Positions 12,535 to 61,849 of a stretch of 64,000 nucleotides of DNA are shown here, in pieces (positions within the stretch are counted from its first letter, which is position 1; every line of letters begins with the position of its first letter). The stretch is from the NCBI GenBank assembly GCA_031835245.2, contig JAVKOQ020000041.1, positions 124,001-188,000 on the forward strand. The letters are read 5' to 3'. This DNA comes from Balamuthia mandrillaris. Lineage: Eukaryota. The notes under the pieces are model-generated. The model made no database searches and was not told where the DNA came from. It was given only the letters and a program-made list of their open reading frames with translations. Made by a program: the position numbers and the translations under genes.

Positions 12535-15500
12535 CATGTGCGACACAAGATTGAGCTATTAATTAAGGTTGTGGACTTAAATGTTGCGGATAAGAATGGA
12601 GAGAGGGCATTGGATGCGGTAATCAAAAAGGACTCTGCCAACTTTAATCTGGTGGAGCGACTGATCGACCTTGGAGTGGAGGTGAACGCCAAAGACAAGG
12701 CTCAAATGACAGCCCTTCACCATGCTGTCAACAAGAAGCTCATCGCAACGGCCACGTTGCTCATCCAAAAAGGAGCCGATGTCAACGCTGTCGATAAATA
12801 CGAGCGCAATTCCCTCCATTATGCTGTCGATGCTTCAACTGGTATTCTTTTCTCCTTCTCTATTTCCGTTCCTTGTATCTTGTTTTTCGTTTTATTTGTC
12901 TTTTCCTTGCTATGTTTAAATCGTTCGGTGTATTCTCGTGAACAGGTGGTGCTGATGCCTCCTTCGACATGGAGGAGCTTTTGTTGGAAGCTGGAGTCAA
13001 TCCCAACAAAGCAGACAAACTGGGCCGCACGCCCATGCACTATGCCTTCATCAAGTTTACCGATAACCACAACAACACGTCACGCATCGACCCCATCGAA
13101 ACCATTTCCAGCCTTTGTTCCCTAGAAGGAGTCGATATTGATCACACGGACAAGCACGGTCGGTCTCCGCTTCATTATGCCTCTCAGAGAGGAGCCACTA
13201 CTTGCTCGCTCTATCTCTTGCAGAGAGGAGCCAATTTGGAACGTTGTGATAGGTTTGTATTGTTTGTTTGCTTCTTTATTCATTAGCATTGTTTCTTCGT
13301 TGTCTTGACCTAATACATATTTAAAAAAAAAACAAAAGGGATAACAACACACCGTTATCGGTGGCAATGGCAAGCTCTCATCCGGATTACAGCATTATGC
13401 TTATCCAAAAAGAGGCTAATGTCAAGCATCCCATTCATTATGTAAACAGGGAGAAGTTGTTGGTACCAAAAGACGTCGACGTGACCTCCAAATCTCTCGA
13501 GGAATTAAGAGAACTGCACGAAGCAACCATGGCTAAGCTCGCGAAACAAAAGAGCGCTTATGGTACGCGTTCAGGAATTTTCGTTTTCTCTTCTTAATTC
13601 AAAGTTGTTCATTTTTGCTTGCTTTTTATTGTTGCAGATAACCCCGTAGAACATGAGAGTGAAGAGTCTGACGATAGTGAGGAAGAGGATTACTCTGAAG
13701 ATGAGGAAGACGACGACGACGAAGAAGAAGAAGAAGGTAGTCAAGGCCAAGAGGATGCCATGTCCATCGTTTCAGCTGTTGCTGACCAGGACGAAGGCAC
13801 GTGGTGGCAACAGATCGAAGTAGAAACCTCCAGAACTGTTACATCTATGTTCTACAAAGCTGTTGTTGCTGGTATCGTTCTCGCTATCTCTATCTATTTC
13901 CTCTCTCCGTCCCCATGCTTTCTCCCTCATTTCTCTGCTTGCTCTCTCGTTTTCTCTGCTTCCCGCCCTCTCTTCCTTGAATACTTATTTCCTCATATCC
14001 TCGTTTTAGAATGGCAAGGAGTAGCCTACATGATGTTAGACGCTGGCTTTGACAAACTCGAAGCCCTCAACGACGCTATCAAAGCCGGCAAACTTCAGCT
14101 ATGCCTCACCCTGCTTGCCAAGATGCGAGACAACAAGATCGTTCAACAGAGCAACCCGGAAACTCATCGCAATCTCATCCACTCCATAGCCATCCACTGT
14201 AGCACATTGGATCAATGGGCAAGCCGTCTCCTGGACAAACTGTTACAACGCGGCGTGGATCCTAATCTCAAGGATGCCCACGGACGTTATCCTCTGCATT
14301 ACGCCTGTAGCAATCACAACGTCGACCTTGCGACTCATCTGTTGAGAGCGGCGGAGACGAAGGAAAAGAAAGAATCCATCACTTGCGCTTTGGACGAGGA
14401 CAATAACACCCCGCTCATCATGGCTTTGCGCGGACATGGAACGCAACCCACGCCTCCTCCTTTCCGTTTAGGTGGAGATTCCTCGTCATACTCGTCACAT
14501 TCCAGTTATGTGCAGTCGGCTTCGTTACGACTGGCAGTGTTGTTGTTGGCTAACAACGCGGATCCCAACGCTCCGTACGTGGAAAAAGATTATCTTCCTA
14601 GAAACGAGTCTAAGCACGATAAAACGAAAGGCACCGCATCTGCTTCTTCGTCTACTTCCACCAAAGGAAAGGGGAAAGAAAAACAAGGACCCAACGACAA
14701 GAAACAAAAGGACGAAGCGGCTCGCCGCAGGGAAGAGAGAGAAGCACAAGCTCACACCACGTTGCTCATTCACGCCGTCCGAAAGAGGGACTTCCGCCTA
14801 ATCCAAGAATTGATCAATCACGGTGCCTCTCTTGCCGGTCAGGATGGCAAAGGCTTCACCGCATTCATGTACTGCGTGCAACGCAACGACAAAGAAATGG
14901 TGGACTACCTCCTGCAACTCGCTCAAAGGCAGCAATCTTCACCAAGTAGATCTGCTGTTGCTAGCGGTGCTTCTCCCGTTCGCTCGTTCCTGGGCAAAGT
15001 GGTTCGGACATTATCCAGCTCTCAGTTGGATGCGTCTTCCGATTTACTGGGTCTTAATGTGCAAGACAAGGAGGGCAAGACCGTCATTCATCATGTGGTC
15101 AGGCCTTTGGAATGGGGCTCTTATGAGAACACAGGCCTACTCCTTGATTTGGTTAAGGCTGGTGCTAATCCTGATATTGCTGATAACTATGGTAAAACTA
15201 TCTTTCTTTTTCTCCTCCCTTGTACTATGTTTACTGTCCCGCTCCCTGCGCTTTTCTTGTACTATGTTTACTGTTCCGCTCTCTGTGCTTTTCTTTCCTC
15301 TTTTTTTCTATTTCTCACTCGGGACTAACCAAAAATCAAAGGAAACACACCCGCATACTATGCTGCTCTGCAAAGTTCGGGTAAGATGTTGCGAGCGCTG
15401 GTCGATAAGTGCAAAGTTAAGACCGGCTTTGGGGACGAGCGGCCCAAACCTGTTCGCCAAGACTCCTTCCTGCCGGTGACTCAATGGGCTAAAGCCAAAG

Positions 15501-20247: not shown

Positions 20248-21718
20248 TCAAGCTCGAACGTAGCTCCTGCCATCGGCACTAATGCCAAGCCCATCAGCTT
20301 GCATGTACTCAACGCCAACAGTGATAAGCCGAAAGGCTGGCAGCGCGTTGGAGCTTCTTCCCACGCCGTGAAACAAAGTCGGCCAGGAGAGGCACAAGGG
20401 CTTCTTTCCAAAGTCCCAAGACTTGCCCTCCAAAGCCCTTTGCCAGTCCGCGTGCATCTTGGCCAACAGCTTGGGGGGCATGAAGAACTCCGCGTGGATC
20501 CGAACAAACAGATCCTTGGCGTCCAGTTCTTCCGGACGTTCCAGCAGTCCCTCCTTTTGCTCCTCGGTGAGGTCGGTCAGCTCCACAAAGCTCTCGTCCT
20601 CCCCGTTTGCCTCCTTGGTGACTTTGAAGAAGATCCTGTGGAGGTCGAAGGTGGCTGTTTCAGAGGTCACCACAGCGCCATCCTTGTGATGGGCCTGGAA
20701 GGTCGCGCAACAAGGGTCGCTGTCGGACTCGGCTGTGATGAGGGTGCCCAGCGGTACTTCTGGTTTGTCAAAGGCCTGCTCCAACGTTTGCAGCAGAGAC
20801 TGCATCCAATGCGGACCCAACACCTACAAACAAAGGAGAAAAATGAGTGCTAGCCATGGGTGGAATGAAGCAGGGGCAGCTGAAAAGCAGGAAAGCAAGT
20901 GAAAGCATTACCACGTCCACCGCCTCTCCCTCCTCTCGAAACTCGAACCCCATCAAGAGACCATCGATGCTCTTGTTGACCGGAGTTTTCAGTCTGAGCT
21001 CCTCGATGCGGGAGGCAAAGGGCTCGTCCTTGGCGTAGTGGGGCCTGGACGTCGAGGAGAGGAAGAGCGGGTTGTCCTCAGAGATAATCTCGCTGACGCC
21101 AGAGCTGGCGGAGCTGCTGACAGCTAGGTACTCCCTTGGACGAAGCGGATGAAGCAGCAGGAAGCGCTGAGGCCAGCGGTCGTCGTCGTAGAAAGGTGCC
21201 TTGTCCTCCTCGTCCTCCTGCTCGTTCTCCCTCCCTCCAAAGGGCAGCAAACCATGCAACACGTGCCTTTCCGCAAGGATGAGCGCCTCCTCCAGGCCTT
21301 GTTCTTTGTGCTCATCCGCCCAGGGCCATCTATTTATGAACTGCACGGTGTGGTAAGGACCGAACCTCGTTCCACCAGCCATCATCATGTGCAGCACACC
21401 AAGGTTGGCATGCGCGGCCTCAAGGACCCGTTGGTGTTGCGGCTCATCCACTGGCACGCGAAGCACAAGCTCAACGCCATAGAAATGGCCGCAGCCAAAG
21501 GTGACCAAGCAACGGTGTGGAGGCACAGCGAAGCCCGCTCGAGCAGAGAGAGCGTCCAGGGTTGGCTTGTCCTTCAGGTCCACGACGAACAAACACAGCT
21601 CCTGGCCCACGCTCTCGGCCACATCGCCCAAGGGCACGTGTAACGCATCGGCGAGACGTTGTTTGAACCGCAAGCGAGAAGTAGCGTCCGTGGCCTGCTT
21701 GGCCTTTGTGTTGCCCAT
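20248..21718 (-). CDS. Hypothetical protein, 2 exons (intron about 20824-20911), possible N-myristoylation (MGNTKAK)
   Basis: Two long GC-rich ORFs joined in frame by a gtaatg...ttgtag intron. Confidence 0.75.
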
Positions 21719-22116: not shown

Positions 22117-22230
22117 TGATGGTCTTTACGTGCATTCATCGCACGGCCTGATGGTCTTTGTGCCCCTTCATTCATCGAACGGCCTGATGGTCTTTACGCT
22201 TCTTTCCTCGAACGGGCGTGAGGGTCTTTA
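22117..22230. repeat. Degenerate tandem repeat, 4 copies of a TGATGGTCTTT core spaced 32-36 bp apart
   Basis: tgatggtctttacg...cggcc / tgatggtctttgtg...cggcc / tgatggtctttacg...cgggcg / tgagggtcttta. Confidence 0.8.
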
Positions 22231-22395: not shown

Positions 22396-23619
22396 ATGCA
22401 AATCTACGTCAAGACCCTCACGGGAAAGACCATCACCGTTGAGGTAGAGTCCATGGACGACCTCTCCGAGGTCATGCAAAAGATACAGGACAAGGAGGGC
22501 ATCCCTCCCGACCAGCAACGCCTCATCTTTGCCGGCAGGCAGCTGGAAGTGGGGAGAACCCTGGCGGACTACAACATCCAGAAGGAGAGTACGCTGCATA
22601 TGGTTTTGCGACTTCGTGGTGGTCCTTCTACCTTTTGTTTCGCTGTGGTAAGTCTTCTTCGTTCTTTGTTCTTTTAACTTTGCTCTTGCTTATGTTTCTT
22701 TGAAAAAACAAGGGAGGAGCAAAAGACGGGATTAACTTTCGTCAAAACATTGAAAGGGACCTGTTGCCAAAGGCTGCTTCCCTCAGCTACGAAGGCCTCT
22801 TCTACGAGTACTTCTTTGACACGGGAGACATTGACGAGCTGGAAACCAAAGCAAGAGAGAGGAATGCCCTTTTCTATCCCTCCTACTCCTTTGCTTGCTC
22901 TCCTGGTGAGTGATACTTGTTCTGTTGACTCTTCTTCGACGCTTCATTGTGAAACTGTTATTGACCTTTGTTGTTGTGTGGTACCCCAGATCCTATCTCA
23001 GGAAAGCCAGAGTACTTTATGAGCGTTGGCCTTAACTCTACCATTGAGGAGGACAGTTTTCAGCGTCTTCCTCTCAACTTGGTTCTTGTTCTGGTAACTC
23101 TTTCTTTCTTGTTGTCTTTTGCTTGCCTCTCGTTTCTTTCTTGTCCTTTCTTGTCGCTTCTTTCTTGTCGTTTATTTCTTTCTTATCGTTGCTTATCGTT
23201 TCTTACTTTCTTTCTCACCATTTATCTACCAAAAGGATATCTCTGGTTCAATGAGCTGTGCATTTGGAGACGGAGGGCTAGGCAAATTAGAAGTGGCCAA
23301 GACGGCCATCATCTCATTGCTTGGCCACCTCAAGGAGAACGACCGCGTGGGCATCGTGTTGTTCGATACCGTTGCGGAGCACCTCCTCCCTCTCACAAAG
23401 TTTAAGGACATCGACATGGACAAGCTGAAGCGCCAACTGCTAGATGTTCACCCTAGAGGAGGAACGAGTATGGAGGTGGGATATAGGGCCGCCACGAAGG
23501 AGCTGCTGCAACTGGGCAAGTTGAACATTGAAGAGAGTGAGAACAGGATCATCTTCTTGACGGACGACCAGCCCAACGCAGGTACCTATCACCCTTGTTT
23601 ATTCTTCCCTATTTCCTCT

Positions 23620-23669
<50 letters not shown>

Positions 23670-25788
23670 CGTGCTAATGCCTTTCCTTATCAAAACGAAC
23701 AGACACTCATCACCCTGAGGGATTTGCCAATCTCGTCAAGGAAAATGTCCCTCACGGCATATTTACCTCGTGTTTGGGTATTGGCTCTGACTTCGACCCA
23801 ACACTAGTGGAGTTTCTCATGAAGGTCAAAGGCTCTAACTACTACACCGTCAAATCTGGCAAAGAATTCACCGCAAAGCTGGATGATGAGTTCGACCTTA
23901 TGGTTTCTCCTCTGCTCTTCGACTTGAAGCTTTTATTTAAGGCAGAGGGATGGGATATTGAAAACGTTCGTTGATACTGTTCTTTCTTGTTCTCTTCCTT
24001 CTTCTTCTCCTTTTTCTTCTTCGTGGTTGTCCATTTTGATAGCTTTATTTTTTCAGATGTATTTAATCTATTTTCACGCTGCTCTTATCTTCTTCAGGTA
24101 TATGGCTCTCCTCAAAGTGTAAATAGCAAGGATGAGCTGATGAATGGTTGGCTGACTACAGTCCTTTTTTCTCTTCTAAGAGCAAGTTATTAACGTTAGC
24201 TTATTATCGACAGTGGCTTCTCTTTTCCCGTCGAAGAAAGACGAAAGTGGACAGAACAAGGGAGGCATCATTATTTTGAAGCTTCGCCAAACCTCTGAGG
24301 ATATCTCTTCCTCCGTTATTAACCTCGACATTAGCTACACAGATCGTTCCAATAAGGCTTATGGTAACACTCTCTTTCTCTTCTTTTCTTCTTTAATGTG
24401 GCCTGTTTATTCATTGAGGCCCTGCAACAGAGGATAACACCGTAGTACAGCTCCCACTTGAGGAATTGAAGAATGGAGAGTCGAAAGGCTATTATGGCTG
24501 TTCTGGTCTTAGAAAGGCCATACTTCTCTCTCGCTTTGTTACGCTGATAAAACATTGGTCCGACGACGAGAGAACTGGCGGTACTTGCTCTCTCCGCTCC
24601 GCCGTAAGCTATTCTTAGTTAGCAATCTAAAATTCCCTGTTTGAAATAGATGCCCGGACCAAACCAACTATTACTAAAGAAACTGGCTTGCTATTGTCTA
24701 CCAAAGAGGCTGATGGCAAAACAGTTGATTACAGTACCACTCCCTTAGTAGTTTCTCCTCATTACCGCTCACTCCTTAAGGTATCTTTCATTTTTTGCTT
24801 GTCTTTCCGTATGAAAACCTTAAGTTGGAACAAATAAAGGCATTCAGCGATCATTTCGAGGAGCAAATAGATGAGCTGGGAGATGAAAACCTGCAGAAGG
24901 AGGTGGAGATCATGCAACGCATCATATCCACGCCTACAATCCCTTCTAGCATCCATCATGAGCATCAGGACGCAGGTTCCGATACTTGCTTCCGCCATGC
25001 CCTCAACATGTATTTCCAGAAACCACTCGTGAACGACCCCTCCTTCTTGCTACAGTACAGCGCGCTTGTTAAAGTACGTAATACTGTTGTGTATTGTTGA
25101 GAGAGAGAGGGAGAGAGACCCCAGAACTATCTGCCTTAACCAAAAAATGACACAAAAACGACTACAGAAAGCAGCAGGGAAAATAAAGGAACTTATCTAC
25201 GAAAACTGTGCTATCGACTTTTATGGCGGAGCAGAGAACGTGCCCGCCGATGAAAAGAAGATGGAAGATGAGCGCTCCGATCTGGCTTCCAATCCGGATC
25301 TCTTTGGCTACTTTGAGATTTTCAAGCAGACCTCTCCCAGAGACTTGCTCAACATGATCACCAAAGCGGGGCTCAAGGAGCTCTCTCCTAGTCAATGCTT
25401 GTTCCTGTTGCAGTTCCAGATGAGAACAGACGAGAAGACCGGAAAGCCGCACCTCGTCTACGTGCCTCATCGTTTGTACCATCGTTACGCTCGAAGCAAG
25501 TTTGCGGAGGACAAGAAGCAAACAACGGAGACATTCGTGGAGGCTTTGGAGAAAGAGCCCTCTATTAGTTCCATCTTCCTGGCCCACATCGAGAGCGGTA
25601 AAGCCCACGCGTTTGCTGCTCAGAGATTGGAGGACAGCGACGGCGCTTGGTGTCTGTTGGACAGTTTGAGGACGCACCCTTGCCTGGTGCGCACCACGAA
25701 GGACCTCTGGGAGAAGCACGAGTATGCTGGAAGGGCCTCCGTTATGGTGGCCAGAGACCCCAACAGGCCTTCCCTGGTGCTTATCTAA
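22396..25788 (+). CDS. Ubiquitin - VWA (MIDAS) - Josephin-like protease fusion protein, multi-exon
   Basis: 76-aa ubiquitin at 22396-22623 with no stop; continues PSTFCFAV / [14 protein letters not shown]...[16 protein letters not shown] motifs VL/DISGSM, GGTSM, IIFLTDD; C-terminal SIHHEHQ...TCFRHALN and HAFAAQR...WCLLDSL; all introns phase-compatible by manual splicing. Confidence 0.85.
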
Positions 25789-25821: not shown

Positions 25822-26892
25822 TTATCTCTTCCATGCAGAATAAGAACAACGAGACCAAACGGTTTCTTCCTCCTCTCCCTCTTCCTGAGGGCATCCGTGC
25901 TGCAGAGCATATTGCTTTATCTCCGGCCACTGCTGTGCAGCGCGCCAAGTGTAGGCATCCCAAGTACAGCCGTGCTGATGCGCCCACTTGAGCACCTCCA
26001 ACTGCCCATTCTTGGCGGCCTGGTAGCTCGTCCTCTCGTCCCAAGGACAACCGTTCTCCCTTGCCCACCGCAGCACCTCCAGATGACCGTGTTCAGCAGC
26101 CAAGGCGCAGGTCCACTCCTCCCACTCGCAACCGTTCTCTCTGGCCCACTGCAGCACCCCCAGATGTCCTTGCCGTGCTGCGCTGTACGAGGTCCTCTCG
26201 TCCCAAGGACAACCCACAGAACGAGCCCACTGCAACACAGGCAAGTGGCCGTTCTCGGCGGCGGCTGCGCAAGTGGTGGCATCCCAGGGGCAACCGTGTG
26301 CATGCGCCCAGCGCAGCACGTCCAAACGGCCGTGTAGCGCGGCATAGAAGCATACCAGTTTATCCCATTCGTACCCAACCCCACGAGCCCACTGCAACAC
26401 CTCCAAGTGCTTGGCCGCGGCTCTGCACACCCGCCGTTCATGAAAGGGCTGAAGGCCCTGCCCAAAGACCCACTTCAGCACTGCCAAATGGCCGTTGCGT
26501 GCTGCCTGGTGGCACGTCCTGCTGTCCCAGGGGCAGCCTTGCGCCCTTGCCCACCGCAGCACTCCCAACTGGCCCTGCCCTGCGGCGGCTGCGCAGGTGC
26601 TGGCGTGGTGCAGGGGATACCCTTGCGCGAGCGCCCAAAGAAGCAAAGTGGCGGAACTGCAAGCCCTGCGGGCGTACAGTTTGCGCCTTGCCTCGGGAGG
26701 ACAACAAGCGAACCAGCGCCTACAGGTTCTAGCGGCCACGCCCACCATGTCCTTGGGCAGCCATCCCAACACCAGGCACACCACCTCCGCAGGTAACGCC
26801 TCCACTTCTGTCGGGATGGTCAGGAGAGTGCTTAATGTCGACACATACAAGCCAACGAAAACATCACGACCCTTGGGCGAACAAGACGGCAC
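25822..26892 (-). CDS. F-box-like + ankyrin-like (GCPWD-type) repeat protein, intronless; start codon uncertain
   Basis: LPAEVVCLVLGWLP...AARTCRRW F-box-like segment, then about 9 repeats of AA.NGHL.VL.WAR..GCPWD..T. Confidence 0.85.
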   Translation of the reverse strand: MPSCSPKGRDVFVGLYVSTLSTLLTIPTEVEALPAEVVCLVLGWLPKDMVGVAARTCRRWFACCPPEARRKLYARRACSSATLLLWALAQGYPLHHASTCAAAAGQGQLGVLRWARAQGCPWDSRTCHQAARNGHLAVLKWVFGQGLQPFHERRVCRAAAKHLEVLQWARGVGYEWDKLVCFYAALHGRLDVLRWAHAHGCPWDATTCAAAAENGHLPVLQWARSVGCPWDERTSYSAARQGHLGVLQWARENGCEWEEWTCALAAEHGHLEVLRWARENGCPWDERTSYQAAKNGQLEVLKWAHQHGCTWDAYTWRAAQQWPEIKQYALQHGCPQEEGEEEETVWSRCSYSAWKR

Positions 26893-46221: not shown

Positions 46222-46547
46222 ACAAAAAGAGACCCAAGCTGAAAAGACGACGTTTCCTTAATATTAATATTCAACTCACAATCCTCTACAGAAACCATAT
46301 GAAAGGACTAAAGTAGAGAAAGAATGCAACTCTCTTGCGTGCTTTTGTGATGGTGAAGGGGCTTGCAACCTTGCACAGCCATGATCCCGGAGGTGCTGCG
46401 TTGGTTGAGGGAGAACGGTATGCCCCTTTAGCGGTGTCCGCAAAAAACCATTTTTGAATTTTAGTTGGTCGATCACAAATGGATGATAGATCCGTGACGA
46501 CATGTGACATTCAAACAAAAAAAAAAGAAGAAAGAAAAAAAAAAAAG

Positions 46548-48521
46548 ATGAAGTCGTCGGCAGCGGCGACGAGAAGAAGAAGAGCAGGTCCAACGAGGGA
46601 CCTCCACGTAGCGGCCTACGAGGGAGATGCTGATAGGATCAGCTTTCTTCTCACTCAACTTTCACTCTCTTCTTCTTCTTCCTGTTCCCCTGAAACGAAA
46701 CAAGAAGGGGTGGCTGCAAAAGATGATGAAAAAGCAAAAGAAAAAGAAGCGTCCCTCCATCCCCTCTCAAACCAAGAAGAAGCAGAAGAAGAAGAAGAGG
46801 CAACCCAACAGCAACAACAACGTAGCCAGTTCTTGAACCAACGGGATGAACGCGGGTTGAGCGCTCTGCACTACGCCGCTGTCACCAGCAACAGCCTCCT
46901 TCCCACCGTTCAAACCCTCATCTCCGAAGGCGCTGCCATCGATCTTCCTCTCCAGGAAGAAGACGCAGCGGAAGGGTTGGAGGATGCCGAGGAAGCTCCT
47001 CATCGCGGAAAGAGGACGAGACAACCAAACGGGCAAAGAGCGTTTCGTCGGGTGGTCATGTCCTCGCAGGACAAAACGCCAGAGATCAAGCTCTCCAAGG
47101 ACGGGCTTTATGTCTTCAACGCTGCGAAGCTCTCCCGCGTGTTGGGCACCATGGGGAGCGTTCGCAGCAACGTCCAAGTCACCTCCTCAACCTCTCTCGG
47201 AGAAGAAGACGAAGAAAACGAGAGAAGCAGAGGAGAGAGAGGAGAAGGAAGCAGAAGCAGAAGGAGAGGAGGAGGCATGTGGTACTATGAGGTGACGTTG
47301 CTGACGGACGGGCTGTTTCAGGTGGGGTGGGCCACCAGGAGGTGCAAGTTCACGCGCAACGAGGGCGTGGGCGATGATGAGTTCTCCTATGCCTATGATG
47401 GCTATCGCGTGCTGAAGTGGCATGGCAAGTCTTTTATTCCCTATGGCAAGCGATGGAGTGCTGGTTCGTTCTTCTTCTTGTTCTTCTTCTTCTTCTCCCT
47501 ACTTTGTTGTCTGGTTGTTCTCGCTGTTTCTTTTCTATTCTTGCTTTCTGCTGTTTGGTTTGTTGGTTCGTTAGTTTGGTTGTTGTGTGGTGTTAAACGT
47601 ACATTTCCTTCTCGTTGTATGTAAAAGGTGATGTGGTGGGATGCGGTCTCAACTTGGCCTCAAACCCCTCTCAAATCATGTACTGGCTGAACGGCGAGTT
47701 CCTGGGGGTTGCCTTCCAGGACATCAAAGTGAGGGATGGCTTGTACGTTGGCATCTCGATGGAGGCTCAGGAGCGGTGCATCTTCAACTTTGGTTCCTCG
47801 CCATGGAGATATCCACCGCCTGCTCCTTCCACGTTTCATAACATGCGACCTTCTTCTTATTTACCTTCTTTAAACTTGGACTCGAATGGTGAAGCGAAAA
47901 CAACAATGACGAACAAGATGGAAGATGAGAACGAGCAGACAAAAGAAGAGAGAATGAAGGAAGAGGATGAGTTTTCTGCTTTGCAAAATAATTCGGTGTT
48001 TGGGAAGGATTGTTGTTTTCGGTACGTGCAACTGGAAGGATGTACTCCTCTTCATCTTGCTGCATTTCTTCATCGAACGGCACTTATTGATTTTATGCTA
48101 GGTACTTCATTCTTTTTCTTCTTTCGCGCGCTCGCTGTCGCTATTTCTCTCTCTCTCTCTCTCGCTCTGTTTATTGATTACATATTTTCAGAGCCCTCGT
48201 CGCCGAAGATCACTTCAGAAGAAGAAGAGGAAGAAGAAGAAGAAGAACAATGCAAAGGTGATAAACGGGCAAAGCTCTCATTACCTACAGCTAACGTCAA
48301 TGCAAGAGATGCCAATCTACGTACCCCGCTTCACATGGTTGCCCTTGGTGTGTTCTCGAATGATACTGGAGATGATGGGATAGAGTGCATGCGGAGTTTG
48401 CTTGCCTCTGGTGCGCTTCTGCAAGCCAAAGATATTTATGGCCAGACTGCATTGCACATTTGTTGTGCTCGGGGCATCCTCCCCGCTGTTCAGTTTTTGC
48501 TTGAGGTTTGTTTCTCCCTCT

Positions 48522-48597
<76 letters not shown>

Positions 48598-51140
48598 CCT
48601 CTCTCCCCCTCTCTCCTGTCAATCTTTATTTAAGTTGCAATTTAAAATAGCGAGGAGCTTCGTTGGTGAATCAAGATTGTATGTCTTGGAGTGTTTTTCC
48701 TCATAGTAATCCACTTCATCTGGCTGCCTTGAACGGTCATTGTGAGGTTGTGCACTTGTTGCTACACGAAGCTGCAAAAACAGGTATTATCTGCCATCAT
48801 ATTTTGCTCTTTTGGTTTCGTTGGGTTATGCTCACGTTATTAAAGAGAAACAAAAAGCAACAGCAGAGGAAAGCAGTGATGGTGAAGATGATGGAGGCAG
48901 CCAACAAGAAAAAGAGAGCGAGCATAAAATGCAAATAGAAAAAGACAAAGAAATAGACAAAAAGATGCGAAGAAGAGCGATTTATCTTCGAATGAGTGAC
49001 ACTGATAATGTCCCTCTCACATCAACGAACGAAGAAGGAAACGAGGTAGAGAAGAAACGAGGTGAAGGAGGCGGAGAAAGCTCTGCTTCAGAGTCTGGAA
49101 GCATAAACGGAGTACTGGACTATCTCAATACAAGAGATGCGGAACTAAACACACCATTGCATTTAGCGTGCATGTTTGGCCATGCAGCTTGTGTCAGGGT
49201 TATGTTGGAGGCTGCTAAGGAAGTTCTCTCCACCTCTGATACTGAAAGTCGGCAACAAAAGAAAGAAAAAGGTACTCTTTTTTTCTTATGGCACTTCGTA
49301 CCTCTTTCTCTTCCCTTCCTCACTCCTCTTCTTTCATTCTTCACACCAAAAAAAGTTGGCAAATTCATAAACGCCCTAATGGGAGACATGGATCTTGAAA
49401 AACTCCCTGCACAACTTTTTGGAAACAATAACAAAGGCAGTAGCTCCACACTCTACACCCTCTCCGAGATCGTCAACGCTGAGAATCTCTTTGAAGACAC
49501 TGCACTCCACTTTGCGGCATGTTACGGCCACGCAGAAATCGTTAAACTCTTATTGGAGGCAGGAGCTAATATTCACTCTAAGAAATCGGATGTTGGCACT
49601 CTCCCTCTACATCTCGCTACTTCCAAAGGCGACCTTCCTACTGTCTCTCTTCTTCTATCGTCAGCATCAACACCAGAAGTTGGTAACGATGGATCATCCA
49701 ACGATTACATTAACTGTCCTGACAAAGATGGAGAGACGCCTTTTCTCAAAGCAGCTGCTTCGAATCATCCTCATATCCTATCTTTCTTGATGGAGAACGT
49801 CAACGACTTAGATATCAACCAAGAGAGTACTCGAGATAGAGAGACGGCCCTGCACAAAGCGGCTTGGTTAGGTTGTGTGGATGCCTTGCGATTCCTGCTG
49901 GCTCAAGAGGGAGTACAAGTCAACACCTTCTCCAAGTTTATGCACATTTCCCCTCTGCACAAAGCCGTCAAGAACAATCAGTACGAGGGCGTGCGTCTGT
50001 TGTTGGAACATGGAGCGGATGCCAATTGTAAGAGCAGACATGACGTTGTTGCGCTATACTCAGCTTGCAGCTTGGTGGAGCCGGATGTAGCGATGGCATT
50101 GTTAGCGGGAGGTGCTCGTAATCGAGCGTGCGAGTTATGGACCCCGTTTTATAAGGCTCTATATGAAGGCAACCATCATCAGGGAGACGCCAAGTTATTG
50201 CGAGCCATCATTGAAAGCGAGTTGGGACATATTGAGAAAGAGAGAGAATATCGAATGAAAGGAGGAACGGGGCACAAAAAGAAAGAGGAAGAGGAGGAAC
50301 ACATTTCCTCCAACGATAGGAACTTTACACCATTGCATCTGGCAGCACTGGTACGTGATTTTTCTCGTTGTGTTTGCCTCTCGCATTTCTAACAACTCTT
50401 TTAAGATAGGGGACGTTACTATGTTGGAGGCTGCCATCGAAAATGCAATTCTAGAACAAGAACAAGAAGAAGAGAAGAAAAATGAGTCAAACTCGATCAA
50501 ACAAACCGCGATTGGCTCGACTTCCAATAGATCGATGAAACAACAACGCCATCAACCTTCCTCTTCAGATGAGCTCCTTCGTTCACTTCTTATTGGTGAA
50601 GATGAACCCAAACAATCACCGCCCAATGACGAACAAGAAGATGAAGACGAGGAAGAATTGATACTTGGGGAAACGTCCGTTGTGAACGTTCGTAGCCAAG
50701 AGAAACTCACCCCATTGCATCTCGCCTGCCTCAAAGGCAACCTTCAATGCGTTCGCTTGCTGTTGCAAAACGGAGCATCTACGATGATCTCCGATGTGGC
50801 CCAAAGAAAACCCATCCATTGGGCCGCCGTTGGTGGACACACTGATTGCATCCTGGAAATGATTCAACATTTGCAACAACTACAACAACAAGAATATGAA
50901 GAAGAAGAAGAGATGATAGCTACAAGTGGTGGAAGGCAGAGAGAGACAGCAGATATAGCAAAGTTTGTGAATTTGAAGGACAAAAGACATTTTAATCCGG
51001 TTGGGTTGGCTGCCGCTGGTGGACATGTGGAGTGCGTCAAGATGTTGACGTCCTATGGAGCTACTTTAGGGAAATGCTCTTTATTGAGTGCTGCTAAAAA
51101 CCTTGAAAAAAAGGTTCTTGCTCATTCTCCCTCCCTCCCT

Positions 51141-51192
<52 letters not shown>

Positions 51193-52852
51193 TTATGTCC
51201 TTGCTTACCACTTATGTGATGCAGGAATGTGTGGAATGCATCCGACATTTAGTCTCGCAACCAAAAGTAGGGTTGCGAATTAGTGTTGGAGCCACAAAGA
51301 TTCTTCAGAACCCTCTAAGTGATGCAGTTTATGCAAACAACGAGGAAGTTATTCAACTTCTTTTGAACAATGGCGCAACCGTGGACCAAGAATTGTTTGC
51401 TGCTGGCTGTTACGCAAACTTTGAGGTTTGATATTTATCGCACCAAATTTCTTTGTTTCATTCTTTCGTTTCTGTTTCTTGCTTCTTTCTCTCATTTTCA
51501 ACTAATACTGCAACATTGCATTGTTGTTTTAGTGTTTTCAATTATTATTTTCCAAAGTGGATCGCTCTCAGCTTGACACAGTAAACCACAAGTTTCCTCT
51601 GCTGCGCGCTGTGGAAGGCGGAAACCTAGACATCGTGCGCGCCCTCATCGGAGCCGGTTGTGATACCAACCTTACTACCAACTCTGCTCTCGTCCACGTG
51701 GAAATGCAGTCGGCCATTCACGAAGCCGCCTTTCACGGGCGTCTCGATATCCTTCACTTCCTGTTGACCAACGAACGATGCCCTGGCGATCCCAACTTAA
51801 CCGACTCACGTGGAAGAACGCCCCTTCATGCTGCTGCCATCGGAGGACATGTTGACTGTGCCAAGCTTCTCATCGAACGAGGCAGCAAGTTGATGGCGAG
51901 CGATGCTCGCAAGATGGTACCCTTGCACGAGGCAGCAAGGCATGGTTGCACGGAGCTGGTCAGGTACTTCTTGAGTTTGATTCCTGGTGTGGATCGGTGC
52001 ACCTATGAAAAGGATAAGATGAAGTACTTGATGACGATGAAGCGACGTTCCCGCTTTATTGACGTACGGAATATTAATAAGGCTACGCCTTTGTTGGAAG
52101 CTACTCTCGGTTTGTATTTCACCTTTTTCTCCTTCTTCCTTGTTGCTTTTCTTATAACACTCCATTACCTTTTCACACATAGGCGGATTTGGCAATTGTG
52201 CTCTCTTCTTGATGCGCAACAACGCCAACTTTCTGCTGAAAGATAAGGAAGAGGTGAGCGTAATGCACAACTGCGCAGCACGTGGTCTCTACAAATGCCT
52301 GCAATATCTACTTGCCAACGGCGCACCGGTCAATGAGACCGATGCCAAAGGCAACACACCTTTACATTTTGCCACGATGCACGATCACGTCGACTGTGCA
52401 GAGCTGCTTATAATGAATGGAGCTATAGTTGAGGAGGATGAACAACTTCAGACAACTTTATCTCCGTTGCATTTTGCTCTTAGGTCAGGAAATCATAAGC
52501 TGTTCTCCTTGTTGGTAGATAGAGGAATGACTGTTACTTGCAAGGATCTCGGTGGTCTTACACCTCTTCATGAAGGTTCTTTTTATTTCTTCTTTACTTT
52601 TTCTCGCTTTTTTTAACAGCTATTAACATATCCACATATAAAGCTGCAAGTGGAGCTCATTTGGAGTTGGTGAAGAAGTTAGTATCGATGGGAGTAACAT
52701 TAGATGTTCTCGACATGCGACAACGTACCATTCTGCACTGGGCATGTGCTGATGGCAAAACCGATCGAAGCACTGCTATGCAGCGGACCATCGGCCGCAT
52801 TCTTGATCATCTTCCTCCTTCTCCAGGTCTCACTTCCTTCTCTTTTTCCCAT

Positions 52853-53479: not shown

Positions 53480-55784
53480 TCTCTCTTTCTCTCTCTCTAT
53501 TCTTCTTTATCCTTATTTATAAATAATAACAGAGTCTGGAAATCGGTTTGAGCGTGATGGTAATGGATGGGGTTGGAGAAAGTTTCACAAGTTAAAAGAT
53601 CTTGTCAAAAACGATTCAGGTTTGCTCTTTCGTTCTTTCTCCTTTTTCTCTATCCTTGACCCATCTAACAACACTTAAAAAAATGAAAAGGCTTTTTAAC
53701 GGAAGAAGGCTCTCTACAATTTTACGTAAAGTTTGAGCTCTTTGACAAACACGAAATAGATCAACACTACGACTTCATTCGGCGTAAAGCTCGCCCTCCA
53801 AAGAAACATGATCAATATAAAGAAAAGTTTGTTCTCCTTTCTCGCTCTCTTTCTCATATTCACTCTTCACTCTTCTTACGTTTTTATGTTATTACACAAA
53901 TGAAAAAGAAAACGAGAGTTTCTTAAATATTTAATAGCAAACAACCTAGACGTTAACGCTAGAAGTCTCGACGGATGGACTCCCCTCCACCTCCAAATGC
54001 AACGCCCTGACCTGCTCTGCTCCTCTCTTCTCCTTGATGCTGGTGCCGATGTGAATGCAGCCGACAAGGACGGCTGCACCGCTCTTCACTGGTTGTTGAA
54101 AGGCAAAGACGTAACAGCGATGGCAGCATCGTCGACCTCGTTGGCTCCCAGGAAGAAACGAGTTGATGCCTGCATCGAACTGCTTCGTCACTTAGTGGAG
54201 GAGAGAGGGGCTGACGTAAACGCGAGGGATAACGAGGGCAACACGCCGTTGCATCTGGCCGTTGTGTCAGATGACGTGTTTGTGCCGGCGTTGGTCCGCT
54301 TGGGAGCTTGCGTGGATGCTATAACGAACAAAGTAGAAATAATTATAAGCGGAGAGGAAGAAGAAGAAGAAGAAAAAGAAGCAGAGGAGGAAGGAGGAGA
54401 GAAGGAAGAGAATAAGAGACAAAGAAAAGTGGTGGATGTACAGATTTGTGGAGGATATACCGCGCTTCATTTAGCGGCAAAGCCGAGGAGCATGTCGAGA
54501 CGTTCCTCGTTGAAGACTTTGTTGGATCAAGGAGCAGATCCAACCATACTTGATGCTAGTGGAAGATCAGCTTTGCATCATCTTCTTGATAATTGCGGTA
54601 AGTGTTCCTGTTTTTCGCCTTTCTGTTTTTTCTAACTTTTGCCTTTAAAATCAACAGAGGTAAAAGCAGAAAGAGAAGAAGTTATGCTTGCAGGAGAAGT
54701 TCACGACATCGCTCTCATCCACACTGACAGTGAAGAAGAAAACGAAGCAAACGAACGACACGACCAAGAAAGAGAAGAGGAAGGAGACGTGGTGCGATTC
54801 GTGGTGCAAGGAAGGATGGTACGAGCTCACAAGTCCATTCTCTCCTCTCGCTCTGAGTACTTTAGAGCCATGTTCGACAACAGCTGGCGTGAGTCAGACC
54901 AAAAGAATGTCGTGCTGAGCATGGAGTGGCTCGAGTTCGATGTCTTTCTTTGTTTACTTCGGTTCCTCTACAGCAAACATCTTCATATTCCTTCTTCATC
55001 TTCAGCTTCTACTTCTACATCTGTTTTGGGCTTTGCGATGAAGTTGTTGGTAGCGAGCGACCAGTTCTTATTGTACGAGAGCTTGGCTGTGGCAGTGAGC
55101 AATTATCTGGTAGACAAAGTTTTGAACTGGGAGAACGTTCGATTCGTGTATGATGTTGGAGATGCGTTCCAACTTCCCGAGTTGAAGAAGCATTGCGTTC
55201 TCTTCATTTTAGAGAATCTTGGGAAGAAGGAGAGAGAAGAGGTGGCAGCTCGCAGGAGAAAGCTTTTGGAGGAAAGGAGTGAAGAGGAAGAAGAAAACGA
55301 AGTACAACCGTTAGCAACAAACAGAGATGAAGAAGTGGAAGGAGAAGTAGGGAACGAAGAAGAGGAGGAGACAGAAGAAGAAAGGATGGCGGGAAAGAAG
55401 AGGAAGAGGGAAGAAAACGAGAAGCAAGAAAAAGAGAAACGGATAACAAAAACAACGCCAATAACCGAACAATCGAGCGAAGAAAAAGGAAAAGAAACAG
55501 AAATGAAAGGCACAAAGGTGGAAGAAGAAGAAGAACAAGATGAAGAAGAAAAGGAAGAAGAGAACGAAAAGGAAGCACTAAAGTCGAACCTGATTCACGT
55601 CATGAAACGGATGATAGTGGAAGTGGCCACTGGAAAGATAGAGTTTAGAGATAAGTACACAAACGTCATTGAGTGGAAGCAACTCGCAACGAATCTAAAG
55701 GAAAACGAAGAAGAGGAGGAAGAGGAAGAGGACGAAGGAGAAGAAGGAACAGAAAGAGGAACTCATCCACCAACTAACACATAA
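46548..55784 (+). CDS. Giant ankyrin - SPRY - ankyrin - MATH - ankyrin - BTB/POZ protein, many exons
   Basis: SPRY (WYYEVTL...FQVGW...GVGDDEFSYAYDG...GDVVGCGL); many TPLHLAA repeats; MATH (FFFRIDDF...YGGYAW...YLSLFF...WGWRKF); BTB (DVVRFVVQGRMVRAHKSILSSRSEYFRAMF). Confidence 0.85.
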
Positions 55785-58053: not shown

Positions 58054-59092
58054 ATGAACCGAGAGAGTGCCGCTTTGAGCGCCAAGCAACGGTGGCTGGT
58101 GAGGACCTCATGGAAGAGACTGGAACCATTGGTCAGCAAGAAAGGGTTCGGCGGCTTGCAGTCCCTCAAGCAAGACGTTGGCATGCCGGTTGCCTCCCGT
58201 TACGACCACCACGACGTGATCACGTATTGCTCCTCTTTGTTGTCATTTTCGTTCTCTTATTCTTTAATACTTATGCTTCCTCTCTCGCTTTAAAAAAAAA
58301 AAACACACCAGAACAAGCACAGAAGGAGCCGCCAGCAAAGAAGAGCAAGACGCTCTTTGGGAGCGAGCTGCTGCCTCCAACAACAGCAACGAAGAAAGCC
58401 CCTTGCTGACCCTCACTTTTTACCGCCACCTCTTCTCCACCCACCCTCAAATGCGAGAGATCTTTTGGCGCTTCAACCTGCACCAAAGCATGGAGAAGAT
58501 GGTGGCGGTCTTGGCCGATCCCGATGTGGACCTTCAGGCAAGCCTGAGGGCGCTGGCAGAGCGGCACAGAGGCAGAGGCATTCTGCCGGAGGACTATGAT
58601 CGCATTGGCGGTTCGCTGCGCTATGCTCTGACCCAGGTGTTGGAAGAAGCGCAAGGAGAAGGAGACGAGAAGGAGAAAAAAGAGAAGAAGGAGAATGCAG
58701 AAGTGGAAGCATGGATGGCTGCTTGGTCTGTTTTTGCTGAACCGATGAAGTACGTTTGGGAAGACGAACCAAAAGCGGCGATGGAACAAGAGACACAAGC
58801 ACAGCGATTAGAAGAAACGGAAAAAGAAGGAACAGAAGAGGAAGAAAAAGAACCAGAATGGAGCATGGAGGAAGTTGCTCGCCATAACCACGAAAAGGAT
58901 TTGTGGATGGTCATCGATGGTTCCGTTTACGATGTGACCAAGTTTTTCTCTCTCCATCCAGGCACTGGCGAAAAGCTGCTTCTTGGTGCAGGCAAGGACG
59001 CTTCCAACCTCTTTATCAACAACAGCTTTCACTCCCCACGGGCCCGTCGTATTCTTCAGCACTATCGAATTGGTCGTCTCCAGACATGTTGA
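58054..59092 (+). CDS. Globin - cytochrome b5 fusion protein, 2 exons
   Basis: LSAKQRWLVRTSW (A helix), FYRHLFSTHPQMREIF (B10 Tyr, CD1 Phe), LAERHRGRGI (proximal His), WMAAW; b5 motifs HNHEKDLWMVIDGSVYDVT, HPG, AGKDAS, HSPRA. Confidence 0.88.
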
Positions 59093-60270: not shown

Positions 60271-60343
60271 CTTATATCCAATCTATAAATTAATCTGAAA
60301 AATGGAAACAAAAATAACCCAAAAAAAAAAAAATAAAACAAGA

Positions 60344-61849
60344 ATGTTGCGCTGCAGCGCCGCTCTCTTCTTCTTCCTCCTATGCTGCTCGGTGCTCCTG
60401 TTGCTCTCGCACTCGGCCACGGTGGCGCAGGCTCAAGCCGCCAAACCGGGCAACGCCTCCGTCTTCTTTGACCGCGTGGTCCTCACAGACTCCTTCTACG
60501 GCGACTACGGCCTCCGCAAAGCCGACGTCAACCAGGATGGCCGCATGGACCTCGTGGCCTTCGCCTGGCAGACCGGCCTGCTGGCCTGGTTCGAGAACCC
60601 CTCCTGGCGGCAGCACAACGTGGGCAAGTACCCCGGCATCGTGGACGTGGACTTTGCGGACATGAACGAGGACGGCCTCTTGGACTTTGTGGTGGCGTGG
60701 GACCTCCACGTCCCTCCCGTCAGCCCCAACGAAGGTCAAGCCGGTTGGCTGGTTCATCCCTCTTCCAACAGCACCTCCAACGATACTTCCTTGCTTGAAG
60801 GGGAAGAAGAAGACGAGAGGTGGGAGTACAGACCGATTGCAGATGCCACGAACTACGTGGCAGGCATACACAGGATCCGAGTGGGCCGATTCCTAAAGGG
60901 AGGCAGCGACAAGGACGTCATCGTCATCCCCATCTTTGACTACGGCGTGGGACCGCAGTACTTTAACCAGTCGGGGTGCAGCATACGGTACTTTGCGCGC
61001 CCGGAGGATGCCGCCACGCGCACCACCGCCTGGAACACCAACTCCACCCTCCTCAACTCCTCCCTTCACATCTGTCACACCGTTCGCTCCTATTCTTCCT
61101 CGCTCTTGTCTGCTTCAAGCAAAGAGGCATCAGCAGCGCAGCAGGACTTCCTCATCATCAACAGTCTTGAAGGAATCACTCGGCTTGATGTGCGCAACGA
61201 TGCTTCCTCTTCTTCTGCGTTTGCTCCGAAAGCGCGTTTGACGAACCTCAATCCGGGCAAAGCGCCGGTGGCATGGAGTCCCTTTCACGGCTCTCAGGGA
61301 ACCAGCTTGGGCTTTGTGGACGGTCGCCCAGCTTTCATGGCTCAGATCTCTCCATGGGAGGGCGTCAACGTGCTCTCTCCTGCCACCGTCGCCATTCTGC
61401 TTCCCTCTTCCTCTTCCTCTTCCATCTTCCAACCCCCGTTGCAAAGGATCGAATTGGACGTGTTGGGTCCACAGGCGCATGACGTTGTGGCCGCTGACTT
61501 TAACGGGGATGGCTGCGATGACTTCTTGGTAGGCCTGAGAGGGCCTGTAATCGGCGTTTGGATGTTTGAGTGCCACAAGAAGAAGAACAACAAGAAGTTG
61601 GAGTTGGAGTGGACCTTTTATCCGGTTTCTTTGGATCAGAGGTATGGAGCTTCGGCGTTGGTGGCGCATGACTTTGATGGCGATGGAAAGATGGATTGGG
61701 CAGCAACCGGTTTTCCTGGATTTCCTGAGAACGAAGAAGAGCAGAACAACAAGAGCGAGCAAAACGGATTGTTAGTAAGTAACCAGCAAAGACGGAGCAC
61801 GAAGAGAGCACAAGGAAATCATTATGTTGCTGTTTACTATCAACGTTAG
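60344..61849 (+). CDS. Secreted FG-GAP/VCBS beta-propeller, aldos-2-ulose dehydratase-like, intronless
   Basis: Signal peptide; DVNQDGRMD, DMNEDGLLD, DFNGDGCDD, DFDGDGKMD repeats; GIHRIRVGRF, ICHTV, AHDVVAAD; upstream in-frame ATG at 60302. Confidence 0.75.
   Translation: MLRCSAALFFFLLCCSVLLLLSHSATVAQAQAAKPGNASVFFDRVVLTDSFYGDYGLRKADVNQDGRMDLVAFAWQTGLLAWFENPSWRQHNVGKYPGIVDVDFADMNEDGLLDFVVAWDLHVPPVSPNEGQAGWLVHPSSNSTSNDTSLLEGEEEDERWEYRPIADATNYVAGIHRIRVGRFLKGGSDKDVIVIPIFDYGVGPQYFNQSGCSIRYFARPEDAATRTTAWNTNSTLLNSSLHICHTVRSYSSSLLSASSKEASAAQQDFLIINSLEGITRLDVRNDASSSSAFAPKARLTNLNPGKAPVAWSPFHGSQGTSLGFVDGRPAFMAQISPWEGVNVLSPATVAILLPSSSSSSIFQPPLQRIELDVLGPQAHDVVAADFNGDGCDDFLVGLRGPVIGVWMFECHKKKNNKKLELEWTFYPVSLDQRYGASALVAHDFDGDGKMDWAATGFPGFPENEEEQNNKSEQNGLLVSNQQRRSTKRAQGNHYVAVYYQR

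What the first reader, a model, noticed from the sequence alone, without database searches (positions are those of the whole stretch)
22396..22626. The fused ubiquitin looks built to stay attached: Gly76-Pro77, K48R and K27M
Seen: about 62/76 identical to canonical ubiquitin by manual count. The L8/I44/V70 patch and LRLRGG are intact, but position 48 is Arg (LIFAGRQLE), position 27 is Met, residues 19-28 are diverged, and the next residue is Pro. Known: Ub-Pro junctions are cleaved poorly by cellular DUBs and are classic UFD-pathway substrates degraded through K29/K48 chains. Inference: a natural non-cleavable ubiquitin domain that avoids K48-chain turnover yet can still bind ubiquitin receptors or its own Josephin domain.
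Basis: partly seen in the sequence, partly recalled or inferred. Interest (0 to 1): 0.78.

Follow-up and report, generated by a model that had tools for sequence, protein, structure and literature searches.

The report
Amoeba protease carrying its own ubiquitin
This altered ubiquitin is the front end of an amoeba protein that ends in a predicted Josephin-type protease; relatives keep the ubiquitin tail but not the proline after it, so the protein likely clips its own ubiquitin off two residues early rather than being built to keep it, a cut so far reported only for bacterial enzymes.

Summary
In detail: 62/76 identity to ubiquitin, K27M, K48R, Gly76-Pro77, plus an unmentioned D52V. All recur in a Balamuthia mandrillaris protein from another assembly, and RNA data support the gene. 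The ubiquitin heads an 11-exon, 830-residue ubiquitin–vWA–Josephin-fold protein. Three more full-length homologs exist. After Gly-Gly they have Glu (Soliformovum) or Gly (unnamed record), or the tail is lost (Physarum). Pro77, Met27 and Arg48 are each unique to Balamuthia. What is kept is the protease-binding face (14, 13, 13 of 14 residues) and the exact tail. K29, the lysine critical for UFD degradation, is retained, so 'escapes UFD' is unsupported. The C-terminal domain has an intact Cys/His/Asp triad. Across its family the catalytic His is followed by Ala (38 of 39), never the aromatic gatekeeper, as in the Simkania clippases that cut Arg74|Gly75. Best reading (0.38, untested): the ubiquitin is a private substrate that the protein's own domain clips, so Pro77 does not matter. 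Staying attached is nearly as likely (0.32). No earlier scan finding or paper on this architecture was found.

The parts
22396..22623 (+). Ubiquitin domain, residues 1-76 (62/76 to human ubiquitin; lysines left: 6, 11, 29, 33, 63)
   Evidence: (PF00240 E 1.3e-28)
22453..22479 (+). Cluster of changed residues 20-28, with M27 at 22474-22476
   Evidence: 7 of 12 differences in 9 residues, p 0.0006
22537..22539 (+). Arg48 codon (AGG)
22549..22551 (+).
22606..22623 (+). Tail, residues 71-76 (LRLRGG); proposed clip site between Arg74 (22615-22617) and Gly75
   Evidence: the clip site is inferred
22624..22632 (+). Pro77-Ser78-Thr79: three-residue linker to the first conserved residue of the vWA module
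22396..22647 (+). Coding exon 1
22713..22905 (+). Exon 2 (start of the vWA module)
22990..23093 (+). Exon 3
23236..23581 (+). Exon 4; vWA core with intact MIDAS motif DxSxS at 23236-23250
   Evidence: (VWA_2 E 4.4e-12)
23703..23965 (+). Exon 5
24098..24146 (+). Exon 6
24214..24363 (+). Exon 7
24431..24580 (+). Exon 8
24650..24780 (+). Exon 9
24840..25073 (+). Exon 10: end of the vWA module and start of the Josephin-fold domain; Gln589 at 24966, predicted catalytic Cys596 at 24987
25168..25788 (+). Exon 11: rest of the Josephin-fold domain; predicted catalytic His771 at 25606, Ala772 at 25609 (no aromatic gatekeeper), Asp789 at 25660; stop at 25786-25788

Best explanation
The ubiquitin is the N-terminal module of a spliced amoebal ubiquitin–vWA–Josephin-fold protein, and it likely serves as a private substrate that the protein's own predicted protease domain would clip between Arg74 and Gly75, which would make Pro77 irrelevant. 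Shown: the gene, the three-part architecture in four full-length proteins, the kept binding face and tail, the variable residue 77 and lysines, the Cys/His/Asp triad and the His-Ala motif. Predicted: the Josephin fold. Inferred: protease activity on ubiquitin, the shifted cut, and action on its own N-terminus (in cis or in trans). The released ubiquitin 1-74 could not be conjugated, so its lysines and the 20-28/52 patch are free to drift; K27M, K48R and D52V would be by-products. All three tail-bearing members would then expose the same Gly-Gly N-terminus on the vWA–protease part. What the mature protein acts on is not known; a guess is a regulated, low-activity ubiquitin remover aimed by the vWA module.
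For: (1) Architecture: 11 exons, 10 GT-AG introns, all seen as joints in contigs; one 2016-nt contig runs from the vWA exon 4 to exon 11, another from exon 1 to exon 5. (2) Homologs: P0139 Soliformovum irregulare, P0185 unnamed, P0179 Physarum (species read from the record id) share it. (3) Tail 6 of 6 identical in P0185 and P0139 while residues 1-70 are only 41 and 34 of 70 identical (chance 0.04 and 0.013). The 14 residues taken as Josephin S1 contacts from the preprint are kept 14, 13 and 13 of 14 (Fisher p 0.07, 0.006, 0.0007). (4) Residue 77 is P, G or E; lysines 27, 29, 48, 63 are lost in different combinations, against 80 of 80 kept in viral ubiquitin genes. (5) Domain model pLDDT 97; the five best VIA matches are all Josephins (Z 9.5-8.3, rmsd 3.7-5.1, 134-168 aligned; next 7.5); the family profile aligns C596/H771/D789 with ataxin-3 C14/H119/N134 (E 0.005); Cys 23 of 23, His 39 of 40, Asp 36 of 39 in the rows that cover them. 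(6) The residue after His is Ala in 38 and Ser in 1 of 39 rows. SnJos1 and SnJos2 lack the aromatic gatekeeper and have Ala there (PMC10643670, passages), and both cut after Arg74; the gatekeeper holds Gly75 in conventional DUBs (bioRxiv 2024.07.24.604956, Results and Discussion read).
Against: No activity is measured. The fold search cannot tell clippase from conventional DUB: BpJOS (clippase) and PaJOS (conventional in the preprint) tie at Z 9.5 and human JOSD2 is within 1. Many clippases keep the aromatic residue, and its absence is also what non-DUB papain proteases show. P0002 has no Pfam Josephin hit; identity to solved Josephins is 16-20%. The Physarum protein has an intact triad but only 1 of 6 tail residues, so self-clipping cannot be universal. 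Each of the three tail-bearing members lacks K29 or K48 or both, which fits a permanent domain avoiding UFD (rough chance 0.15, so weak). Many family members seem to be stand-alone proteases without ubiquitin. In the full-length model residues 72-76 are under pLDDT 50, with no sign of an ordered tail (patchwork alignment). An unrestrained clippase would harm its own cell. Only four full-length proteins were found, and the S1 residues overlap the I44 patch that any ubiquitin receptor reads.
Confidence: 0.38

Rival explanations
1. The ubiquitin stays attached. It is an integral ubiquitin-like domain that docks on its own protease as an uncut pseudo-substrate or binds I44-patch receptors; Pro77 keeps host DUBs off.
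For: Ub-Pro is cut inefficiently by most DUBs (PMC4522658) and Ub-Pro fusions were degraded uncleaved (PMC9703124). Pro follows Gly-Gly in 0 of 76 viral ubiquitin genes with an extension. The Physarum homolog has no tail, so an uncleavable version exists. Every tail-bearing member lacks K29 and/or K48. The I44 patch is intact.
Against: Two homologs keep the exact tail followed by Gly or Glu, a junction DUBs normally cut, while their bodies have drifted. Tail loss in Physarum looks derived: it groups with the tail-bearing P0185 at 100/96, most other forks being open. K29 is kept, so a permanent fusion would still be a UFD candidate.
Confidence: 0.32
2. Ordinary ubiquitin fusion: host DUBs remove it after Gly76, as for viral and algal fusions, and Pro77 is a lineage accident that only slows this.
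For: Tail and binding face are kept; homologs have Gly or Glu at 77. An enzyme that cleaves the Ub-Pro bond efficiently is reported (Gilchrist et al. 1997, title seen in the reference list of PMC7935551; that it is USP4 is recalled). The gene's contigs have depth about 250-330 against tens of thousands for ordinary ubiquitin, so released mutant ubiquitin would be a small part of the pool.
Against: Viral fusions keep K27, K29, K48, K63 in 80 of 80 and D52 in 79 (related sequences, 46 distinct), whereas this family loses them. Whether this amoeba has a Ub-Pro-cleaving USP was not tested (no genome held).
Confidence: 0.17
3. The C-terminal domain is a Josephin-fold protease for something other than ubiquitin, and the ubiquitin domain is an unrelated adaptor whose odd residues are drift.
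For: No gatekeeper; Z-scores to C39 peptidases and staphopain (7.2-7.5) lie only 1-2 below the Josephins; a long insertion after the Cys helix; stand-alone members; Atlas feature score 0.78, under its bar.
Against: All five top matches are ubiquitin-cleaving Josephins; the sequence profile finds only ataxin-3 (3 hits of 177,635); fusion to a ubiquitin with a kept tail in three lineages.
Confidence: 0.13

Closest known systems
Bacterial Josephin-type ubiquitin C-terminal clippases (SnJOS1/2 of Simkania, BpJOS PDB 9F5T, PcJOS PDB 9FN4)
   Same: Predicted Josephin fold (Z 9.5 and 9.2), Cys/His/Asp triad; His-Ala as in SnJOS1/2 (PMC10643670).
   Different: Eukaryotic intron-bearing gene; fused to its own ubiquitin and a vWA module; 17-18% identity; BpJOS and PcJOS keep an aromatic residue after His; cleavage mode untested here; no direct comparison with SnJOS sequences was possible.
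Eukaryotic Josephin DUBs (ataxin-3, ATXN3L PDB 3O65, JOSD2 PDB 6PGV; Pfam PF02099)
   Same: Fold (Z 8.3, 8.6), order and spacing of Gln, Cys, His and the third residue.
   Different: Trp after His in ataxin-3 against Ala here; about 70 more residues between the Cys and His motifs; no UIMs; P0002 is below any Pfam hit; these enzymes cut after Gly76.
UFD substrates (Ub-Pro-beta-gal, Ub-G76V reporters)
   Same: N-terminal ubiquitin with Gly76-Pro77 and K29 present.
   Different: Natural gene; K48 and K27 absent; homologs lack the Pro; turnover not tested.
Natural ubiquitin fusions (Ub-L40, Ub-S27a, algal Ub-NiSOD and Ub-IMP in PMC6332867, viral fusions)
   Same: Ubiquitin directly in front of an unrelated protein.
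   Different: The viral ones keep the lysines and D52 and have no Pro77; here lysines vary and the partner carries a predicted ubiquitin protease.
Prokaryotic vWA proteins of the GGAKD type (YfbK-like by structure)
   Same: About 500 residues at 38-44% identity over 96-100% of the module, MIDAS intact.
   Different: They start with a signal- or membrane-like N-terminus where the amoeba has ubiquitin and end where the protease begins; 0 of 119 carry a ubiquitin tail or the protease motif.

Membership tests
Ubiquitin (conjugatable modifier) | Ubiquitin sequence family and beta-grasp fold | tested here: met
   PF00240 E 1.3e-28; model matches ubiquitin chains at TM 0.95 by target, rmsd 1.1-1.3
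Ubiquitin (conjugatable modifier) | All seven lysines, K48 included | tested here: not met
   K27M, K48R; five lysines left
Ubiquitin (conjugatable modifier) | Releasable C-terminal Gly76 | tested here: inconclusive
   Tail intact but followed by Pro; release not measurable here
UFD substrate | Uncleaved N-terminal ubiquitin | not testable with these tools
   Gly76-Pro77 present; cleavage needs protein work
UFD substrate | K29 available (critical for all substrates tested, PMC9703124) | tested here: met
   K29 kept; lost in P0139 and P0185
UFD substrate | K48 available (need varies by substrate) | tested here: not met
   R48
Josephin family | Josephin papain fold | tested here: met
   Predicted model; top five VIA rows are Josephins, Z 9.5-8.3, rmsd 3.7-5.1, 134-168 aligned; Foldseek best 3O65 E 1.1e-4, TM 0.37/0.49
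Josephin family | Cys/His/Asn-or-Asp triad with upstream Gln | tested here: met
   Q589, C596, H771, D789; 22/22, 23/23, 39/40, 36/39
Josephin family | Pfam PF02099 above cut-off | tested here: inconclusive
   No hit for P0002; 1 of 37 relatives passes (P0146, 26.7 bits, cut-off 26), 10 more hit weakly
Conventional Josephin DUB | Aromatic gatekeeper after the catalytic His | tested here: not met
   Ala 38, Ser 1 of 39 rows; no aromatic in the 42 of 52 sequences that cover the site (one read by eye)
Ubiquitin C-terminal clippase | Cuts Arg74|Gly75; reacts with Ub(1-73)-PA only | not testable with these tools
   Needs enzyme assay
Ubiquitin C-terminal clippase | Clippase orientation of the S1 ubiquitin in a complex | not testable with these tools
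vWA domain protein | vWA domain with MIDAS DxSxS | tested here: met
   PF13519 E 4.2e-14, PF00092 E 2.1e-13; motif intact in 4 of 5 long members, altered in Physarum

The most novel reading that the evidence does not exclude
An undescribed protist Josephin subfamily (amoebozoans, at least one rhizarian) is the first eukaryotic ubiquitin clippase, and its ubiquitin–vWA–protease members carry their own ubiquitin as a built-in substrate that is clipped at Arg74|Gly75 to switch or mature the protein, bypassing a Pro block that would stop ordinary DUBs.
Probability: 0.3. Interest if true: 0.86.

Novelty: new variant of a known kind. Interest (0 to 1): 0.62.

Why it matters
Irreversible clipping of ubiquitin is reported only for bacterial Josephins; the human Josephins tested lack it (bioRxiv 2024.07.24.604956; PMC13720258). 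A eukaryotic family that does it would change that picture. It would bear on the origin of the clippases of amoeba-dwelling bacteria such as Simkania, and it could supply new reagents for ubiquitin proteomics. The test is cheap: two probes and one catalytic mutant. If instead the ubiquitin stays on, the protein is a rare natural Ub-Pro fusion with K29 intact, and few physiological UFD substrates are known (PMC9703124). Either way the public record names this protein only 'Ubiquitin' and misses a protease domain conserved across protists.

Tried and rejected
Complex prediction of the protease domain with its own ubiquitin 1-80: 'no answer', score 0.00 in two runs, alignments not used, controls not folded; it is no evidence either way. 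No whole genome is held, so paralogs and host USPs were not checked. Pro77 as a splicing artefact: rejected. K48 in reads: these are other ubiquitin genes. A first acceptor at 23702 broke the frame; corrected to 23703. Single-exon searches of the protease part found no Pfam family and no PDB relative. Scans for the protease in viral contigs: 0 of 234 pattern matches confirmed. Prokaryote genomes: 1 of 16, on the strand opposite an intact 393-aa ORF, rejected as chance. Metagenomes: 3 of 125, all too short to reach a ubiquitin. These pattern scans are narrow and do not show absence. The 'longer' profile search covered only 649-2000 residues and missed P0139 and P0185, so more full-length members are likely. 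No RNA holder was on record; runs X1-X3 are RNA by guess, though their contigs are spliced. Conservation of P77/R48/M27 between two Balamuthia copies: rejected as evidence of selection. A shared hydrophobic residue 20 looked family-specific in three proteins, but P0185 has Ser. The tree is mostly unresolved (5 of 24 inner branches starred). Simkania sequences could not be reached. Literature: searches listed no paper on a ubiquitin–vWA–Josephin protein or a eukaryotic clippase; the library lacks most subscription journals. and bioRxiv 126813 (passages) gave no statement of the K27-D52 salt bridge, which is recalled; they do tie residues 23-27 to the 51-54 turn. Our-findings search by sequence: nothing.

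Full report
Observation. The frame from 22396 encodes a ubiquitin with 14 changes from the human protein, 62 of 76 identical (counted by eye). K27M, K48R and Gly76-Pro77 are real, and L8, I44, H68, V70 and the tail are intact. Three changes (S19, Q28, A57) also occur in ordinary ubiquitin reads of the same runs (loose ends). Against a near-canonical ubiquitin from a fetched locus there are 12 differences, 7 of them in residues 20-28 (p = 0.0006). Residues 23-27 are structurally coupled to the 51-54 turn (bioRxiv 126813, passages); the K27-D52 salt bridge is recalled. So K27M and D52V look like one local remodelling away from the I44 face.

The gene. Eleven exons from 22396 to 25788 with ten GT-AG introns give 830 codons and one stop. 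All ten joints appear in assembled contigs (runs X1-X3 are RNA by guess). One contig joins exon 1 to exon 5 and another exon 4 to exon 11, so ubiquitin, vWA and the last domain lie in one transcript. Three raw RNA-Seq reads of X5 cross the first intron and cover the Pro codon; X4 gave 5 reads and X6 none. Reads with K48 at loose settings (106 of 112 in X4) come from other ubiquitin genes and vanish at 96% likeness. The only hit for the last exon among 755 candidates was P0002, named Ubiquitin of Balamuthia mandrillaris, 33 differences from the window's protein, with the same M27, R48, V52 and P77.

Middle module. Residues 80-575 belong to a vWA family: 655 hits among 7993 candidates, the best 119 others at 38-44% identity, those with an organism name archaeal or bacterial. 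None of the 119 has a ubiquitin tail or the protease motif. Pro77 sits eight residues before the family's GGAKD motif, in a variable linker (Ser 43, Ala 23, Gly 9, Glu 8, Lys 6 of 110). Ubiquitin stands where these relatives have a signal- or membrane-like N-terminus.

Last domain. Pfam finds nothing in P0002, but a search of 1.84 billion representatives gave 52 proteins. Named sources among the 30 looked up are Soliformovum, Mastigella, Paradermamoeba, Rhizamoeba, Pelomyxa and Reticulomyxa. A profile of 48 of them matches only ataxin-3 in the PDB (E 0.005) and aligns C596, H771 and D789 with C14, H119 and N134. The model is confident (pLDDT 97). Its five best structural matches are Josephins: BpJOS Z 9.5, PaJOS 9.5, PcJOS 9.2, JOSD2 8.6, ATXN3L 8.3; the next row is 7.5. 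These are ties and do not tell the cleavage mode. The triad is nearly invariant, and the residue after His is Ala in 38 and Ser in 1 of 39 rows (one search agrees).

The decisive comparison. Three more full-length proteins have the same order of domains: P0139 (Soliformovum), P0185 (unnamed) and P0179 (Physarum, from the record id). P0175 is a vWA–protease protein cut short at its start. After Gly-Gly come Pro, Glu and Gly; Physarum has lost the tail and the MIDAS motif. Position 27 is M, K, A, R; 29 is K, A, Q, K; 48 is R, G, K, K (window, P0139, P0185, P0179). None of the three features in the finding's title is shared. In P0185 and P0139 the tail is 6 of 6 identical while residues 1-70 are 41 and 34 of 70, and 13 of 14 residues of the Josephin-binding face are kept. 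That face overlaps the I44 patch, so the tail is the more telling part. Physarum groups with P0185 (100/96), which suggests its loss is derived; most of the tree is open. As a control, the best 80 of 598 viral ubiquitin genes (46 distinct, related, picked for closeness) keep K27, K29, K48 and K63 in 80 of 80, and 0 of 76 extensions start with Pro.

What is known. Most DUBs cut Ub-Pro poorly (PMC4522658, passages). One enzyme is reported to do it efficiently (title in the reference list of PMC7935551). In the UFD pathway K29 was critical for all substrates and K48 for some (PMC9703124, passages), so K48R with K29 kept is no clear escape. Bacterial Josephin clippases cut Arg74|Gly75. The aromatic gatekeeper after His holds Gly75 in conventional DUBs and should not be needed in clippases, although many keep it; the human Josephins tested do not clip (bioRxiv 2024.07.24.604956, parts 1-5 of 8 read). 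SnJos1 and SnJos2 lack it and have Ala there (PMC10643670, passages), and both are clippases. PMC6332867 (passages) describes other natural fusions, and PMC13720258 (passages) names only bacterial ubiquitin clippases. Supplements were not read.

Mechanism. A tail kept across distant amoebozoans, while lysines and residue 77 vary, means something reads the tail but does not depend on the next residue or on reusing the ubiquitin. Clipping by the protein's own gatekeeper-less domain fits all of this: Pro77 lies three places past the cut, and ubiquitin 1-74 cannot be conjugated. This is inference (0.38). Staying attached remains close (0.32): Pro77 does hinder DUBs, Physarum shows an uncleavable form, each tail-bearing member lacks K29 or K48 (rough chance 0.15), and the full-length model leaves residues 72-76 disordered. 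Removal by host DUBs (0.17) and an unrelated substrate (0.13) complete the set.

Verdict. Observation confirmed; interpretation partly supported. The 'built to stay attached' reading rests on residues private to one lineage. The more interesting object is the family: an undescribed ubiquitin–vWA–Josephin-fold architecture whose protease has the mark of the Simkania clippases. No paper on it appeared, and no earlier scan finding matched by sequence. New variant of a known kind; interest 0.62.

Noticed in passing
window 58268-59089 (+): One open frame holds a globin match (E 5.6e-7) followed by a cytochrome b5 domain (E 4.7e-23): a possible globin–cytochrome b5 fusion.
   Followed up: no
window 22488-22598 (+): Stretches of 32-43 nt of the ubiquitin exon match high-depth ordinary ubiquitin contigs with 0-1 mismatches. 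With the 82% protein identity, against 53-62% in two homologs, this hints at recent replacement or gene conversion from the host's ubiquitin genes; codon bias could also explain it.
   Followed up: no
window 22642-22647 region, residue 81 (codon 22636-22638): Cys81 replaces a Gly found in 110 of 110 vWA relatives four residues before the GGAKD motif; two amoebal homologs keep Gly.
   Followed up: partly
window about 22117-22200: Three imperfect copies of a roughly 30-35 bp unit upstream of the start codon, seen by eye; not listed by Tandem Repeats Finder at score 40.
   Followed up: partly
window 20768-21718 (-): Divergent neighbour gene with a weak SUFU match (E 0.043), head to head with the ubiquitin gene.
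   Followed up: no
window 25822-26802 (-): Intronless F-box-like plus ankyrin-repeat gene ending about 35 bp from the protease stop codon; 81-bp repeat period.
   Followed up: no
window 46458-51428 (+): Run of long frames with ankyrin repeats and a SPRY domain; also ankyrin at 13598-15325, BTB at 54636-55781, FG-GAP at 60299-61846.
   Followed up: no
proteins P0134, P0150, P0179: Family members with a long insertion between the catalytic His and Asp strands: hydrophobic and membrane-like in P0134 and P0150 (Reticulomyxa), low-complexity and about 200 residues in Physarum.
   Followed up: no
loci L005-L084: Many viral ubiquitin genes are fused to long partners: 52 of 80 have extensions over 20 residues, several of 400-500 or more.
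   Followed up: no
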